Notes: a model not told the origin generated them from the sequence alone. 64,000 nucleotides of DNA from Promethearchaeota archaeon (GCA_019058445.1 JAHPZA010000004.1:354184-418183), one strand, 5' to 3'. Shown: positions 35,984 to 38,338, counted from the first letter of the stretch. A program made the numbers and translations.

Positions 35984-37324
35984 GTGAAAGAGAAAAAAGA
36001 TTTGCAATGTAAATATGAGAATTGTACAAATAGGAAGATAGATTACAACGAAAAAAATACTAATTCTAATCTATTGTTTTTGGATATCTTCGAAGATAAG
36101 AAGACTTTAGAAGACTATGTTATTGAACAAATTCAGTATTATTCTAGAACAGGTGAAAGATTATATCAACAAGAAGACATTACGAAAGCACTTAAATTTA
36201 GAATGGCTGATTTCAAGCCTAAAGTAATGAATATAATTAGAAGTATATTTTACACAAAAAAAGAGGATATTATTCAGACTATCTACGATATGACTTTTGG
36301 GAAAGTTAGATTTGCAATTCAGAAATTACGACATTGGGCTTCGCAAAATGGAATGGAAGTATTAACGACATCTCAAGAATGGTTTGATATGGTACTTAAT
36401 AGAGATGAATATCTCAAAACTGGACCTAAAAAGACAACAGAATTTTTAAAAGTTTTAATAAAGTGTGCTCAAGGCCATATTTATGTTAAATATGCAAGGG
36501 AAATTTCAAAGGGATGTAAACATTGTCAACCGTATAGGGTCGGTATTGCATATACTCGTACTTTAGAAGAATACTATGAATATATAAAGGATGTCTGCTC
36601 AGTAAGAGGTTATGAATTAATAACTACGAAAAAAGAGATTATATTAAAATTAAAGAAATCCAGACAGATTAAAGATCGTACTAGTTTTGAAGGTCGTGAT
36701 GAAAATGTTGGGATAGAAGTGAGACATAAAGGATGTAATCATGAATTTAAAATTCGTTTTAAAGCTGTTTTGTATAATCCTGGATGTAAATTCTGTATTT
36801 CACACAAAAAACAAAAAATTGTACAATTAATAATAGAAGAGATGTTAGGAGAAAAATTTGAACCTGAGGTACAAATTCATAGAGTATTTAATAAAGTGAA
36901 GCATAAAGAAGTAAATGATTTCGATTTTAGAGTCAAATTGGATATGTTTAAAAAGGTAGGAATTAGAGATAAAAATGGAAATTTTATTAAATTGGCTATT
37001 GAAAGACATGGCCAACAACATGAGCCCACACTAAAAGGATTCAAAATCTATTTAAAAATAGCTAAACATCCTGATATAAAAAGAGGAAGTAAAATATATA
37101 AAACATTATGGAAGAAGTGGATGAAACAGTTAAACACTGATAAAAAAGAAATAGAGATATTTCAAAAATATAATGAAAATGGTTATTATTTAATTGTAGT
37201 GCATCATAAGATTAAAAATCATCAAGTAGAGCAATTTATTATTAACGAATTGATGAGACAAACAGGCAATAAAATTAGCTATATAGGTATTCAATGGCAA
37301 ACCTTATTTAATAAGATAAAGTAA
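35984..37324 (+). CDS. Zn-ribbon plus PD-(D/E)xK/Vsr-like (EDxHD-type) endonuclease, free-standing homing-endonuclease-like
   Basis: C..GH...GCKHC and H..C.H...GCKFC modules; KLDMF..., LAIERHGQQH, D.KE.E....NGYYLIVV. Confidence 0.65.
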   Translation: MKEKKDLQCKYENCTNRKIDYNEKNTNSNLLFLDIFEDKKTLEDYVIEQIQYYSRTGERLYQQEDITKALKFRMADFKPKVMNIIRSIFYTKKEDIIQTIYDMTFGKVRFAIQKLRHWASQNGMEVLTTSQEWFDMVLNRDEYLKTGPKKTTEFLKVLIKCAQGHIYVKYAREISKGCKHCQPYRVGIAYTRTLEEYYEYIKDVCSVRGYELITTKKEIILKLKKSRQIKDRTSFEGRDENVGIEVRHKGCNHEFKIRFKAVLYNPGCKFCISHKKQKIVQLIIEEMLGEKFEPEVQIHRVFNKVKHKEVNDFDFRVKLDMFKKVGIRDKNGNFIKLAIERHGQQHEPTLKGFKIYLKIAKHPDIKRGSKIYKTLWKKWMKQLNTDKKEIEIFQKYNENGYYLIVVHHKIKNHQVEQFIINELMRQTGNKISYIGIQWQTLFNKIK

Positions 37325-37338
37325 AAAATTTTTAAAAA
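37323..37338 (-). terminator. Oligo-T terminator for the 5S precursor
   Basis: T5 and T6 runs on the minus strand directly after the processing stem. Confidence 0.45.
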
Positions 37339-37357
37339 TAGTCATATAACTTAACGT

Positions 37358-37538
37358 TTCCGGGTTCCCGAACCATCCATAAATCAGATGATTTTTCGGA
37401 TGGGACCGGGTACTATCCTCGATAGCCATGACCGTAAGCAAACTTATGCTTGCGTTGCAATACACAACGCAATTTACAGTTTGATAGTTCCCACAGATTG
37501 CAACTGCAGTACTATTATCAACGCGTATCGAGTTTAAC
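37358..37538 (-). rRNA. rrf: 5S rRNA gene, circularly permuted and intron-containing; mature order = 37437-37395, 37364-37358, 37538-37474
   Basis: Helix I UUACGGU/ACUGUAA; helix II GCUAUCGAG/CUCGAUA(C)GC; helix III ACCCGG/CCGG(AA)GU; loop C UCCCAUCCGAAC; helix V UUGAUA/UAUCAA; loop E AGUA/GAA; helix IV CUGCAG/CUGUGG; total 115 nt. Confidence 0.88.
37365..37394 (-). other. 30-nt BHL intron in 5S rRNA loop C
   Basis: Central helix UCCG/CGGG, bulges AA^A and AA^C, intron stem AAUCAUCUG/UGGAUGGUU. Confidence 0.85.
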
Positions 37539-37599
37539 CTTCGGCGTTATGCGAAATGCTTTGTTATATGATTATATTATAAAAAAGAAAAATTATGAA

Positions 37600-37620
37600 G
37601 AATAATAAATTTTATCATTT
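37600..37620 (-). promoter_or_regulatory. Candidate BRE/TATA for the 5S precursor
   Basis: Minus strand GATAAAATTTATTAT ~25-30 nt upstream of the outer stem; the AT-rich background makes this weak. Confidence 0.3.
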
Positions 37621-37717
37621 TTTAAGAACTTAGATGTCTATGTAATTCATAAATTAATTTTTTATGCGATAAATTATATCATTAAATATCTTAATAAAGC
37701 CAAGTACGGATGATTAG

Positions 37718-38338
37718 ATGCCTAACAAAATTGTAATCTTATTGAAAAGAATTCTAAAATTTTGGTTTATCGCCCTTATCGTAGCTATTCTTATAGTATA
37801 TCTTTACTATCCGAATTATGCAATATGGATGACTGTGATTAGCATAATTCTGATAGTTTTATCATTTATCCCCAGTCTCTATTTTCGTTTTAGATTAGTG
37901 AGGTTTATGAAAGAATATTATAGAATAGATGATAAAACAATTGCAAGATATTTTAAGAAACCACTGAGAAAAATACAAAACAAAATGTTTGCGATGTCTC
38001 AAAAGCAAGAAGGTAAAAGTTGGTGGAAAAGGCTTCTCGAAAGACTTCTAAAAAAGGAGGCTGAACCAACATTAAAGCTAGACAAAAAAAAATGGCTTAT
38101 TATTTTCTTTAATAGACAATATATCTTTTACCACATGGAAACTATTGAAAAAATAAAAGAACTCTTTATAAAGGGCTATAACGACAAAGAAATGTTAGAA
38201 GATCTTAAAGAATTTGAGATAAAAAATAGAGATGAGATTAAAGCAATCATTCAGACGCTACTAAAAAACAAAAGAATTAGTGAGAGGACCACGAGTGTTA
38301 AAGAACGTCAGGAAAAAAAGCGTTTTGAAAATTTATAA
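37718..38338 (+). CDS. Hypothetical protein, two N-terminal TMs plus basic cytoplasmic domain
   Basis: Hydropathy of the 206-aa ORF. Confidence 0.7.
   Translation: MPNKIVILLKRILKFWFIALIVAILIVYLYYPNYAIWMTVISIILIVLSFIPSLYFRFRLVRFMKEYYRIDDKTIARYFKKPLRKIQNKMFAMSQKQEGKSWWKRLLERLLKKEAEPTLKLDKKKWLIIFFNRQYIFYHMETIEKIKELFIKGYNDKEMLEDLKEFEIKNRDEIKAIIQTLLKNKRISERTTSVKERQEKKRFENL

What the first reader, a model, noticed from the sequence alone, without database searches (positions are those of the whole stretch)
37337..37575. Circularly permuted 5S rRNA gene closed by a BHB-like processing stem
Seen in sequence (minus strand): the 5S 3' half (37538-37474, GUUAAACUCGAUA...ACUGUAA) comes before the 5' half (37437 onward, UUACGGUCAUGGCUAUCGAG...), joined by a 36-nt linker. 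All five helices pair across the two halves. Leader and trailer pair (UCAUAUAAC/GUUAUAUGA, UAACG/CGUUA) and present CCGG-AA^A opposite CCGA-AG^G. Cutting after the second bulge nucleotide and ligating gives ...AACCCGGAA|GUUAA..., the conserved 5S helix III/loop B sequence. This motif is relaxed (one A.C mismatch in the central helix). Established: EndA/RtcB-type splicing matures permuted tRNA genes, and permuted SRP RNA genes are known in Thermoproteus. I know of no permuted 5S rRNA gene. Inference: 5S matures through a circular intermediate, and standard rRNA finders would miss this gene.
Basis: partly seen in the sequence, partly recalled or inferred. Interest (0 to 1): 0.97.

Follow-up and report, generated by a model that had tools for sequence, protein, structure and literature searches.

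The report
Back-to-front 5S rRNA gene with mini-introns
This Lokiarchaeia-type Asgard archaeon encodes its only 5S ribosomal RNA with the back part first, between tRNA-intron-type cut signals and interrupted by one or two 30-base inserts. A normal 5S can arise only by cutting and rejoining the transcript, probably into a ring, which explains why gene finders report no 5S here.

Summary
On the minus strand, 37538-37474 is the 5S 3' part and 37437-37358 is the 5' part. Leader and trailer form a relaxed bulge-helix-bulge (BHB) stem whose predicted cuts rebuild CCCGGAA|GUUAAAC.

Rfam finds no 5S in the window or the 4.6-Mb genome. A model of the permuted layout finds exactly this one locus. It also finds one locus in 117 of 131 sampled genomes of the same family.

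The re-ordered sequence aligns full length to canonical 5S of the sister family (43 bits; 16 bits in native order) and folds into the 5S Y shape. Leader-trailer pairing covaries in exact register.

A second gene type in the family breaks 17 nt away. Each type encodes the other's predicted junction as continuous DNA.

New for this window: a 30-nt BHB-type intron in loop C (37394-37365). The "36-nt linker" is a 6-nt cap plus a second 30-nt BHB-like insert (37473-37444). 181-30-30 = 121 nt, the family's standard size.

EndA and RtcB genes are present. This scan has already noted the same phenomenon on other Asgard DNA. I found no paper reporting it.

The parts
37572..37613 (-). A/T-rich upstream region with TATA-like boxes (AAATTTATTATT, TTTTATAATATAA). 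This is the presumed archaeal promoter of an independent transcription unit.
   Evidence: Sequence only. Relatives have TATA-like boxes about 22-30 nt upstream of the distal leader arm. Inferred, not tested.
37563..37571 (-). Distal leader arm UCAUAUAAC, which pairs with 37350-37342.
   Evidence: 9 bp in the MFE fold of the 239-nt precursor. Relatives keep a distal arm with a different sequence, e.g. CCACAAAAG/CUUUUGUGG.
37550..37562 (-). Leader spacer with a small hairpin (GC-AUUUC-GC), conserved as UAGC-loop-GCUA-like hairpins in relatives.
   Evidence: Function unknown.
37545..37549 (-). Outer BHB helix h, leader strand UAACG.
   Evidence: Pairs with CGUUA at 37356-37352. The helix abuts the trailer bulge in exact register in 14 non-redundant genes: 60 pairs at register 0 against 17 or fewer at other registers, and 0 of 20000 leader/trailer re-assignments reach that sum.
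37541..37544 (-). Central BHB helix H, leader strand CCGA. It pairs with CCGG at 37363-37360 (3 pairs plus one A.C).
   Evidence: Relatives have 4/4 pairs with compensation (CCGG/CCGG, CUGG/CCAG, CUGG/UCAG).
37538..37540 (-). Leader bulge AG^G. The predicted cut is between 37539 and 37538, so G37538 becomes the 5' end of the excised RNA.
   Evidence: Geometry. Inferred from the rule that EndA cuts after the second bulge nucleotide (own knowledge).
37474..37538 (-). 5S 3' part: the helix III 3' base (GUU), helix II 3' strand, helices V and IV with loops E and D, and the helix I 3' strand.
37444..37473 (-). 30-nt insert in the helix I cap region, a candidate second mini-intron: CAAA-CUGU-AA^A, h' 10 bp, GCAU-AA^G-UUUG (H 3/4).
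   Evidence: Only one of four equivalent registers gives the motif. Removal yields ACUGUAAGUUUGCUUACGG, identical to relatives such as G022. A homologous 31-nt insert occurs in G004/G006/G009. It is absent in G001/G003/G005/G007 of the same genus.
37438..37443 (-). Helix I cap GUUUGC (closing pair plus UUUG tetraloop).
   Evidence: tetraloop caps in 62 of 67 distinct family genes.
37395..37437 (-). 5S 5' part, first piece: helix I 5' strand, loop A, helix II 5' strand, loop B, helix III 5' strand and loop C up to CCCAUCCGAA.
37365..37394 (-). 30-nt BHB-type mini-intron in loop C: UCCG-AA^A, h' 9 bp, 5-nt loop, CGGG-AA^C.
   Evidence: Removal restores the family consensus CCCAUCCGAA|CCCGG. Eleven distinct relatives carry a 30-31-nt insert at the same site with the same H and bulges, and in ten of the eleven a 4-9-bp covarying h' (one, L087, has only 2 contiguous pairs). 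The score against canonical 5S rises from 29.5 to 43.3 bits on removal.
37358..37364 (-). 5S 5' part, last piece CCCGGAA. It holds the helix III 3' strand (also H3' of the terminal BHB, 37363-37360) and the AA bulge. The predicted 3' cut is after A37358.
37352..37357 (-). Third trailer bulge nucleotide (A37357) and outer helix h, trailer strand CGUUA.
37342..37350 (-). Distal trailer arm GUUAUAUGA.
37321..37340 (-). T-runs (UAUUUUUAAAAAUUUUUUAC), the presumed archaeal oligo-T terminator.
   Evidence: Sequence only. Canonical 5S genes of the sister family also end in T-rich tracts. Inferred.

Best explanation
Window 37571-37342 (minus strand) is the organism's single, functional 5S rRNA gene, written in circularly permuted order. 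It is transcribed on its own from an upstream TATA-type promoter.

In the precursor, the leader pairs with the trailer to form an h-bulge-H-bulge motif. The tRNA-splicing endonuclease EndA cuts after the second nucleotide of each bulge, between 37539/37538 and 37358/37357. RtcB then joins the new ends, which creates the conserved helix III sequence CCCGGAA-GUUAAAC and closes the RNA into a ring.

The same enzymes remove a 30-nt intron from loop C (37394-37365). They probably also remove a second 30-nt insert next to the helix I cap (37473-37444). The product would be a 121-nt 5S whose helix I is closed by a UUUG tetraloop, or 151 nt if the second insert stays.

Shown: gene order, uniqueness, 5S identity of the re-ordered sequence, conservation and covariation of the closing stem and of the loop C insert motif, and presence of EndA and RtcB genes. 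Inferred: cleavage, ligation, circularity, and that the ring is what the ribosome uses.
For: Identity as 5S:
- The re-ordered sequence hits a profile of Rfam-validated canonical 5S from the sister family over positions 3-116 at 43.3 bits. Native order gives 15.7 bits for one half.
- RNAalifold on re-ordered family genes plus canonical genes gives the standard helices I-V.
- The 121-mer folds unaided into the Y shape.

Only copy:
- RF00001 finds nothing in the window or the genome.
- The permuted model R1 finds one locus, this one, at 119.7 bits.

Not an artefact:
- One R1 hit each in 117 of 131 sampled family genomes, including single-contig assemblies.
- 65 of 66 exact-pattern hits among 185,579 species genomes are Promethearchaeota-type MAGs.
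- No f1 genome reaches the Rfam cut-off, whereas sister family f2 scores 53-69 bits.

Closing stem:
- RNAalifold predicts it on the native alignment.
- H covaries (CCGG/CCGG, CUGG/CCAG) and h changes with compensation.
- Register control: 60 pairs against 17 or fewer; 0 of 20000 permutations reach the sum.
- On 67 distinct genes, 94.1% of cells are paired against 78.5% in shuffles and 41.5% or less when slid; 23 of 35 pairs show double changes.

Exact cut-and-join:
- 24 distinct type B genes break in loop C (ACCCGGUC|CCAUCCGAAC) with their own h-CYGG-AA^C / CCGG-UC^A-h motif.
- The type A junction is contiguous DNA in type B genes, and the reverse also holds.

Inserts and cap:
- Loop C intron: 11 distinct genes share the same H and bulges; ten of the eleven have a 4-9-bp covarying h'.
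- 62 of 67 genes have a tetraloop cap on a 7-8-bp helix I stem, 8 bp in 60 of them.

Enzymes and precedent:
- EndA (202 aa, N and C domains) and RtcB genes are present.
- Precedent: the permuted SRP RNA of Thermoproteus is circularised at a site cut by the splicing endonuclease (PMC4731332).
Against:
- The terminal motif is relaxed in this genome. H has an A.C mismatch. There is no regular inner helix h' in the strict register; only GGUU/AACC forms if the leader bulge is read as 2 nt.
- The only detected EndA is a short, single-gene form. From my own knowledge, homotetrameric EndA enzymes prefer strict BHB motifs.
- Forming H requires the helix III 3' strand to pair with the leader instead of its mature partner, so a folding switch must be assumed.
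- The second insert's motif is weaker (H 3/4) and rests on only three distinct sequences.
- Stramenopile mitochondrial permuted 5S stays permuted and linear (PMC4267664), so ligation is not a logical necessity for the terminal ends.
Confidence: 0.75

Rival explanations
1. Circular intermediate only. The RNA is cut and circularised as above, then re-opened near the helix I cap, so that the ribosome receives a conventional linear 5S. This is what has been proposed for archaeal circular pre-16S and pre-23S.
For: The general archaeal rRNA pathway uses circular intermediates that are re-linearised (PMC12918454 background; PMC7758197 title and abstract). In this genome the cap region carries extra sequence (37473-37438) that could hold a processing site.
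Against: In 62 of 67 distinct family genes the two helix I strands are joined by only a tetraloop, mostly UUCG, UUUG or UUAG, on a 7-8-bp stem (60 of 62: 8 bp). That leaves no spacer to remove and looks like a selected stable hairpin. The extra sequence here has its own BHB-like motif whose removal recreates such a tetraloop cap.
Confidence: 0.12
2. Permuted in the final product. The closing stem only guides endonucleolytic trimming. The ends are not joined, and the ribosome uses a linear 5S with its termini at the helix III AA bulge, as in stramenopile mitochondria.
For: [quoted passage not shown] The helix I tetraloop cap is expected under this model too.
Against: The loop C intron in this very gene would leave two pieces unless ligated, so ligation is needed anyway. 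Ends made by EndA are the natural RtcB substrate (own knowledge), and RtcB is encoded. Type A and type B genes would give 5S molecules nicked at different places within one family, while their predicted ligation products are identical. Notes from this scan report the rejoined ring in environmental RNA for other Asgard genomes, which I did not check.
Confidence: 0.1
3. Not a working gene: an assembly artefact, a rearranged pseudogene, or a chance resemblance, with the true 5S lying in the unassembled 7% of the genome.
For: The genome is 92.6% complete in 10 contigs, so absence of a canonical copy is not proven.
Against: The same order is found in over 100 independent assemblies, including single-contig genomes, with one copy each and no canonical copy in any. 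Helices show compensatory changes in 23 of 35 pairs. The loop sequences needed for function are conserved.
Confidence: 0.02

Closest known systems
Permuted, circularised SRP RNA of Thermoproteus tenax (Plagens et al. 2015, eLife, PMC4731332)
   Same: An essential structured non-coding RNA of an archaeon is encoded in permuted order. The canonical gene is 'missing' from annotation. [quoted passage not shown]
   Different: The RNA is different (5S rRNA, a ribosome component). The feature spans a whole large family, and apparently much of the Asgard phylum, rather than a few species. Here the break point sits at the helix III AA bulge or in loop C, extra 30-nt introns are present, and there is no experimental proof.
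Circularly permuted tRNA genes (Cyanidioschyzon merolae, Soma et al. 2007, as cited in PMC4267664). Archaeal cases are from my own knowledge and were not checked here.
   Same: The 3' part is encoded before the 5' part. A BHB forms from leader and trailer. Maturation goes through a circular RNA made by cut-and-join. Permutation can coexist with introns.
   Different: tRNA circles are re-opened at the mature ends by RNase P and tRNase Z. Here helix I is closed by a tetraloop, so the ring probably persists.
Permuted mitochondrial 5S rRNA of brown algae and other stramenopiles (Valach et al. 2014, PMC4267664; Rfam mtPerm-5S model)
   Same: A 5S rRNA with its domains in permuted order that is missed by standard models.
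   Different: It is organellar and has no BHB. The product stays permuted and linear. The all-family Rfam scans gave no match here.
Archaeal circular pre-16S/23S rRNA, and permuted or circular 23S in Pyrococcus, Thermococcus and Methanosarcina (PMC7758197, PMC12918454)
   Same: BHB in a processing stem, the EndA/RtcB pathway, and circular rRNA species, some of which are kept in the ribosome.
   Different: Those genes are collinear. The cited paper states that 5S rRNAs are not part of this pathway. Here the gene itself is permuted, so joining is obligatory.
BHB introns in archaeal 16S/23S rRNA and at non-canonical tRNA positions (relaxed HBh'/hBH motifs; own knowledge)
   Same: The 30-nt inserts have a 4-bp H, two 3-nt bulges and an abutting h', and their removal restores the consensus exactly.
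   Different: They lie in 5S rRNA, where I found no report of introns. They are very short and uniform (30-31 nt) and patchy within one genus.

Membership tests
5S rRNA (Rfam RF00001) | Scores at or above the family's gathering threshold (38 bits) with the covariance model. | tested here: not met
   Native order gives no match, even at E<=10. This is expected for a permuted gene. The re-ordered sequence could not be given to the Rfam tool, which accepts only stored loci.
5S rRNA (Rfam RF00001) | Full-length sequence homology to bona fide 5S once the parts are put in canonical order. | tested here: met
   nhmmer against a profile of 8 canonical 5S genes (each 53-69 bits on RF00001): positions 3-116, 43.3 bits, E 5.5e-15 with the loop C insert removed; 42.7 bits for the 121-mer.
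5S rRNA (Rfam RF00001) | Three-way junction with helices I-V supported by covariation, plus conserved loop C CCGAAC, GUUAA and the loop E AGUA...GAA elements. | tested here: met
5S rRNA (Rfam RF00001) | Present as the genome's 5S gene (no other copy). | tested here: met
   One R1 hit and no RF00001 hit in 4.6 Mb. The genome is 92.6% complete, so this is not absolute.
Archaeal BHB splicing substrate (terminal motif) | Two 3-nt bulges on opposite strands separated by a 4-bp helix. | tested here: inconclusive
   The spacing is exact. In this genome H has 3 pairs plus A.C; 16 other family genes tabulated and 24 type B genes have 4/4.
Archaeal BHB splicing substrate (terminal motif) | Flanking helices h and h' on both sides (strict hBHBh'). 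| tested here: not met
   h is present (5 bp here, 2-7 bp in family relatives, 10-13 bp in other Asgard families). h' is absent in the strict register, or only GGUU/AACC with a 2-nt bulge. The motif is therefore of the relaxed hBH-loop kind.
Archaeal BHB splicing substrate (terminal motif) | The predicted cuts yield a sensible product. | tested here: met
   The junction CCCGGAA|GUUAAAC equals the contiguous DNA of type B genes and of canonical 5S.
Archaeal BHB splicing substrate (terminal motif) | Cleavage by EndA and ligation by RtcB are demonstrated. | not testable with these tools
   The genes are present.
BHB intron (loop C insert 37394-37365) | H of 4 bp, two 3-nt bulges, an abutting inner helix, and exact restoration of the exon consensus. 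| tested here: met
   UCCG/CGGG 4/4, bulges AA^A and AA^C, h' 9 bp. Only one of four equivalent registers fits. In 11 distinct genes H and bulges are conserved; h' is 4-9 bp and covaries in ten of them. The outer helix h is absent (HBh' type).
BHB intron (helix I insert 37473-37444) | H of 4 bp, two 3-nt bulges, flanking helices, and exact restoration of the consensus. | tested here: inconclusive
   H 3/4, bulges AA^A and AA^G, h' 10 bp, h 4 bp. Removal gives the relatives' tetraloop cap. Only three distinct homologous inserts are available, and two of them have weak h'.
Permuted RNA gene matured by circularisation (Thermoproteus SRP RNA type) | Junction-spanning RNA reads, or a circular RNA, are shown. 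| not testable with these tools
A metagenome scan for the joined sequence found only unrelated canonical 5S genes.
mtPerm-5S (permuted mitochondrial 5S, Valach 2014) | Match to the Rfam model. | tested here: not met
   The all-family cmscan gave no hit.

The most novel reading that the evidence does not exclude
The ribosome of this archaeon, and of most Asgard lineages, uses a covalently closed 121-nt 5S rRNA ring. In this genome the ring is made by three successive EndA/RtcB cut-and-join events on one transcript: one circularising and two removing 30-nt mini-introns. Because the product is a ring, the gene's break point is free to move. That would explain why two break points 17 nt apart coexist within one family, and why 30-nt inserts come and go at several sites.
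Probability: 0.5. Interest if true: 0.9.

Novelty: new variant of a known kind. Interest (0 to 1): 0.85.

Why it matters
5S rRNA is a universal ribosome component whose gene is normally trivial to find. Here it is invisible to standard models. That gives a concrete explanation for 'missing' 5S genes in Asgard genomes, including closed ones: Wu et al. 2022 state that 5S 'could not be predicted' (PMC8813620). It also affects MAG quality scoring that counts 5S.

If the ring is the mature form, a core rRNA of the closest archaeal relatives of eukaryotes is a circular RNA. The tRNA-splicing machinery would then be essential for ribosome biogenesis, and current reviews stating that 5S is not circularised would need revision.

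The coexistence of two break points and of patchy 30-nt mini-introns offers a natural system for studying how permuted genes arise from intron-containing ones. The model built here (R1), or simple half-models, could be used to annotate these genes.

Tried and rejected
- Rfam cmscan of the window at gathering thresholds, and of 37000-37900 at E<=10, gave nothing. RF00001 on the whole genome gave nothing. These are expected failures, not evidence against the gene.
- A metagenome-contig scan for the joined sequence GGTCCCAT..CCGAACCCRGAAGTTAAAC returned 40 hits. All are canonical-order 5S genes of unrelated GC-rich organisms on DNA contigs. My pattern lost its specific prefix because a variable gap needs four plain leading bases, so the scan says nothing about ligation.
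- An unconstrained BHB scan of the A/T-rich flanks returned many spurious motifs ranked above the true one. I replaced it with site-anchored tables and register and permutation controls.
- An off-by-one error was corrected.
- I first read the f4 gene (G031) as a different break point. One search shows it is the usual site plus a nested hairpin of about 29 nt.
- The f3 (CR_4) break point, between loop B and helix III, could not be fitted to a convincing BHB.
- Canonical 5S genes of the sister family were checked for flanking BHB stems. None were found; they have a TATA box and T-runs only. A 'circular 5S everywhere in the order' idea is therefore not supported.
- Complex prediction, structure prediction and protein searches were not relevant and were not used.

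Full report
**What is in the window.** The text below reads the minus strand of 37700-37200. The elements occur in this order:
- an A/T-rich stretch with TATA-like boxes;
- the distal leader arm UCAUAUAAC (37571-37563);
- a 13-nt spacer with a small hairpin;
- UAACG (37549-37545), CCGA (37544-37541) and AG^G (37540-37538);
- the 5S 3' part, GUUAAACUCG...ACUGUAA (37538-37474);
- 36 nt of spacer (37473-37438);
- the 5S 5' part from UUACGGUCAUGG (37437) to CCCGGAA (37358), interrupted by 30 extra nucleotides (37394-37365);
- A, CGUUA (37356-37352), A, GUUAUAUGA (37350-37342), and T-runs.

The locus lies antisense in a 393-nt gap between two plus-strand ORFs (35984-37324 and 37718-38338). Neither ORF has a Pfam match. 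No other rRNA or tRNA is detected in the window.

**Is it a 5S gene?** Rfam finds nothing in the window, in 37000-37900 at E<=10, or in the whole 4.6-Mb, 10-contig, 92.6%-complete genome. I could not hand a re-ordered sequence to the Rfam tool. Instead I built a profile from eight canonical 5S genes of the sister family f2, each scoring 53-69 bits on RF00001. The results were:

| Sequence tested | Profile positions | Bits |
|---|---|---|
| Re-ordered, loop C insert removed | 3-116 | 43.3 (E 5.5e-15) |
| Re-ordered, both inserts removed (121-mer) | 3-115 | 42.7 |
| Re-ordered, both inserts kept | 3-116 | 29.5 |
| Native order (one half only) | 58-115 | 15.7 |
| Mononucleotide shuffles | - | about 1 or less |

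RNAalifold on re-ordered family genes plus canonical genes returns helices I-V. The 121-mer folds by itself into the 5S Y shape.

**Is it real, and is it the only one?**
- In 24 genomes of the window's family (f1), no RF00001 hit reaches the cut-off. Only 26-nt helix III hits or weak ones occur, while f2 has ordinary 5S genes.
- Reading the DNA around those weak hits showed the same back-to-front order in every case.
- A covariance model of the native, permuted layout (R1) finds exactly one locus in the own genome. It is this locus, at 119.7 bits.
- R1 also finds one locus in 117 of 131 sampled f1 genomes, some of them single-contig assemblies.
- An exact pattern spanning '3' part, cap, 5' part' hit 66 records among 185,579 species genomes. 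Sixty-five are Asgard MAGs labelled Promethearchaeota or Promethearchaeia (including Loki_b32 and CR_4) or given other Asgard labels.
- Assembly artefact and pseudogene readings are therefore excluded for practical purposes.

**The closing stem.** Cut sites are taken as 'after the second bulge nucleotide', the established EndA rule (own knowledge). On that basis all 17 family genes tabulated read: leader h5'-H5'(CYGG)-AA^G, trailer H3'(CCRG)-AA^N-h3'.
- H shows compensation: CCGG/CCGG, CUGG/CCAG, CUGG/UCAG.
- h differs in sequence but keeps pairing: UAACG/CGUUA here, and GCGU/ACGC, CCCAU/GUGGG, CACUAAA/UUUAGUG, UAAACG/CGUUUA elsewhere.
- The leader tetramer is complementary to the helix III 3' strand, not identical to it. 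It is therefore not a duplication relic.
- Controls: summed contiguous h pairs are 60 in the proposed register and 17 or fewer in six shifted registers. None of 20000 random re-assignments of trailers to leaders reaches 60.
- RNAalifold on the native alignment independently predicts the leader-trailer stem together with helices I, II, IV and V.
- On 67 distinct genes, 94.1% of cells pair (shuffles 78.5%, slid registers 41.5% or less), and 23 of 35 pairs show double changes. That alignment was fitted to the model.
- In this genome H has an A.C mismatch. The inner helix h' is missing in the strict register. The MFE fold of the 239-nt precursor instead pairs GGUU with AACC and leaves a 2-nt AA bulge. 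The motif is thus a relaxed hBH-loop, not a strict hBHBh'.

**A reciprocal check on the cut sites.** Twenty-four distinct f1 genes, mostly from another genus, break at a different place, inside loop C (ACCCGGUC|CCAUCCGAAC). They have their own motif, h-CYGG-AA^C / CCGG-UC^A-h. The product predicted for this 'type B' is exactly what 'type A' genes such as the window's encode as continuous DNA. In turn, the type A junction CCCGGAA|GUUAAAC is continuous DNA in type B genes. Two gene layouts thus converge on one RNA sequence only if cutting and joining occur at the predicted bonds. This is the strongest sequence-only argument for ligation.

**Two 30-nt inserts.**
- *Loop C insert (37394-37365).* It reads UCCG-AA^A, a 9-bp helix, a 5-nt loop, then CGGG-AA^C. 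Of the four cut registers that give the same product, only this one forms the motif. Eleven distinct relatives carry a 30-31-nt insert at the same site. H and the bulges are conserved in all eleven, and in ten of them a 4-9-bp inner helix of varying sequence abuts H. Removal restores the family consensus.
It reads CAAA-CUGU-AA^A, a 10-bp helix, then GCAU-AA^G-UUUG (H 3/4, h 4 bp, one register only). Its removal gives ACUGUAAGUUUGCUUACGG, the exact cap sequence of relatives. A homologous 31-nt insert in three genomes of the same genus likewise collapses to the AAAUUCGUUU cap seen elsewhere.
- *Size arithmetic.* 181-30-30 = 121 nt. Family genes without inserts measure 119-122 nt.
- *Distribution within the genus.* Some genomes have neither insert, some have one, and this genome has both. 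This is the patchy pattern typical of introns.
- *My odds.* I rate the loop C insert as an intron at about 0.8 and the second insert at about 0.55.

**Ring or linear?** In 62 of 67 distinct genes the two strands of helix I are joined by a tetraloop on a 7-8-bp stem, 8 bp in 60 of them: UUCG 26, UUUG 15, UUAG 13, UACG 3 and others. No spacer is left to excise, so a conventional linear 5S with ends in helix I is unlikely. The remaining options are a ring or a linear molecule with ends in helix III.
- The linear form has a precedent in stramenopile mitochondria (PMC4267664).
- However, the intron in this gene needs a ligase anyway.
- EndA ends are RtcB substrates (own knowledge).
- The genome encodes one EndA (202 aa, N- and C-terminal domains) and one RtcB.
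- Canonical f2 genes have no such flanks, only a TATA box and T-runs.

**Wider distribution and prior knowledge.**
- An RF00001 scan of 151 genomes of the phylum found canonical genes over the cut-off in only a few families: f2, f9, f12, f14, f24, and one gene in f23 at 38.4 bits against the 38-bit cut-off.
- Loci with weak hits were read from f4, f5 (closed 1.4-Mb genomes), f7 (closed 3.1-3.3-Mb genomes), f8, f10, f11, f13 and f23. They show the same permuted order with long h helices of 10-13 bp (5 bp in one f7 copy), some with a nested hairpin at the junction.
- Wu et al. 2022 wrote that 5S genes 'could not be predicted' in closed Heimdallarchaeum genomes (PMC8813620).
- Full-text searches found no paper on a permuted archaeal 5S. 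A 2026 paper states that 5S, unlike 16S and 23S, is not circularised (PMC12918454).
- The closest precedent is the permuted, circularised SRP RNA of Thermoproteus (PMC4731332).
- This scan's own notebook already holds about 99 notes on permuted Asgard 5S genes in at least 70 other genomes. They include 30-nt loop C introns and, for some genomes, reports of the rejoined ring in environmental RNA. I did not verify those RNA claims. I reached the gene-level conclusions independently before reading them.

**Verdict.** This window adds a relaxed terminal motif with an A.C mismatch. It also adds a gene that needs up to three cut-and-join events, and family-level evidence for a migrating break point. 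What remains unproven is everything at the RNA level.

Noticed in passing
G000 whole genome (/data/genome.fa): ARAGORN with intron search calls only 23 tRNA genes in 4.6 Mb, and 19 of them have a predicted intron. It finds none in the 64-kb window. Many tRNA genes are probably missed because of non-canonical or multiple introns, or split or permuted layouts.
   Followed up: no
L134, L135, L136 (G255, G233, G251; family f9): These are canonical-order 5S genes of a Thor-like family. They carry an extra stretch of about 30 nt right after GAAGUUAAA and score below the Rfam cut-off (32-37 bits). They are candidate 5S introns in non-permuted genes.
   Followed up: no
L041:1501-1676 and L048:1501-1676 (G105, G124): A 30-nt insert lies in the helix IV loop of a permuted 5S gene. 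Its motif is UUGC-GA^U ... GCAG-AA^U (H 4/4, h' 4, h 3). This is a third insertion site for the same kind of mini-intron.
   Followed up: partly
L051:1501-1677 (G125): This 30-nt loop C insert sits at a different position and contains a copy of the upstream GGAUAAUACCCGGUCCC. The BHB fit is poor (H 2/4). It may be a duplication rather than an intron.
   Followed up: partly
L128/L129 (G176) and L130 (G205), closed genomes of family f7; L012 (G031, f4): G176 shows two permuted 5S loci: one with a plain BHB (GUGGU-CAGG-AA^A / CCUG-AA^A-ACCAC), the other with a hairpin of about 30 nt nested exactly at the junction. The fetched copy of G205 (L130) is of the nested kind; its second RF00001 hit was not fetched. 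The f4 gene shows the same nested arrangement.
   Followed up: partly
L010 / L118 (G026 = MAG CR_4, family f3): This permuted 5S has its break between loop B and the helix III 5' strand. I could not fit a convincing BHB to its flanks.
   Followed up: partly
window 37562-37550 (-) and the same position in relatives: A small conserved hairpin lies in the leader between the distal arm and helix h (GC-AUUUC-GC here; UAGC-GAAAA-GCUA and GUAGC-AUCUC-GCUAC elsewhere). It makes a three-way junction in the precursor. Its role is unknown.
   Followed up: no
window 35984-37324 (+) and 37718-38338 (+): The two ORFs flanking the 5S locus (446 aa and 206 aa) have no Pfam match at E<=0.01.
   Followed up: no
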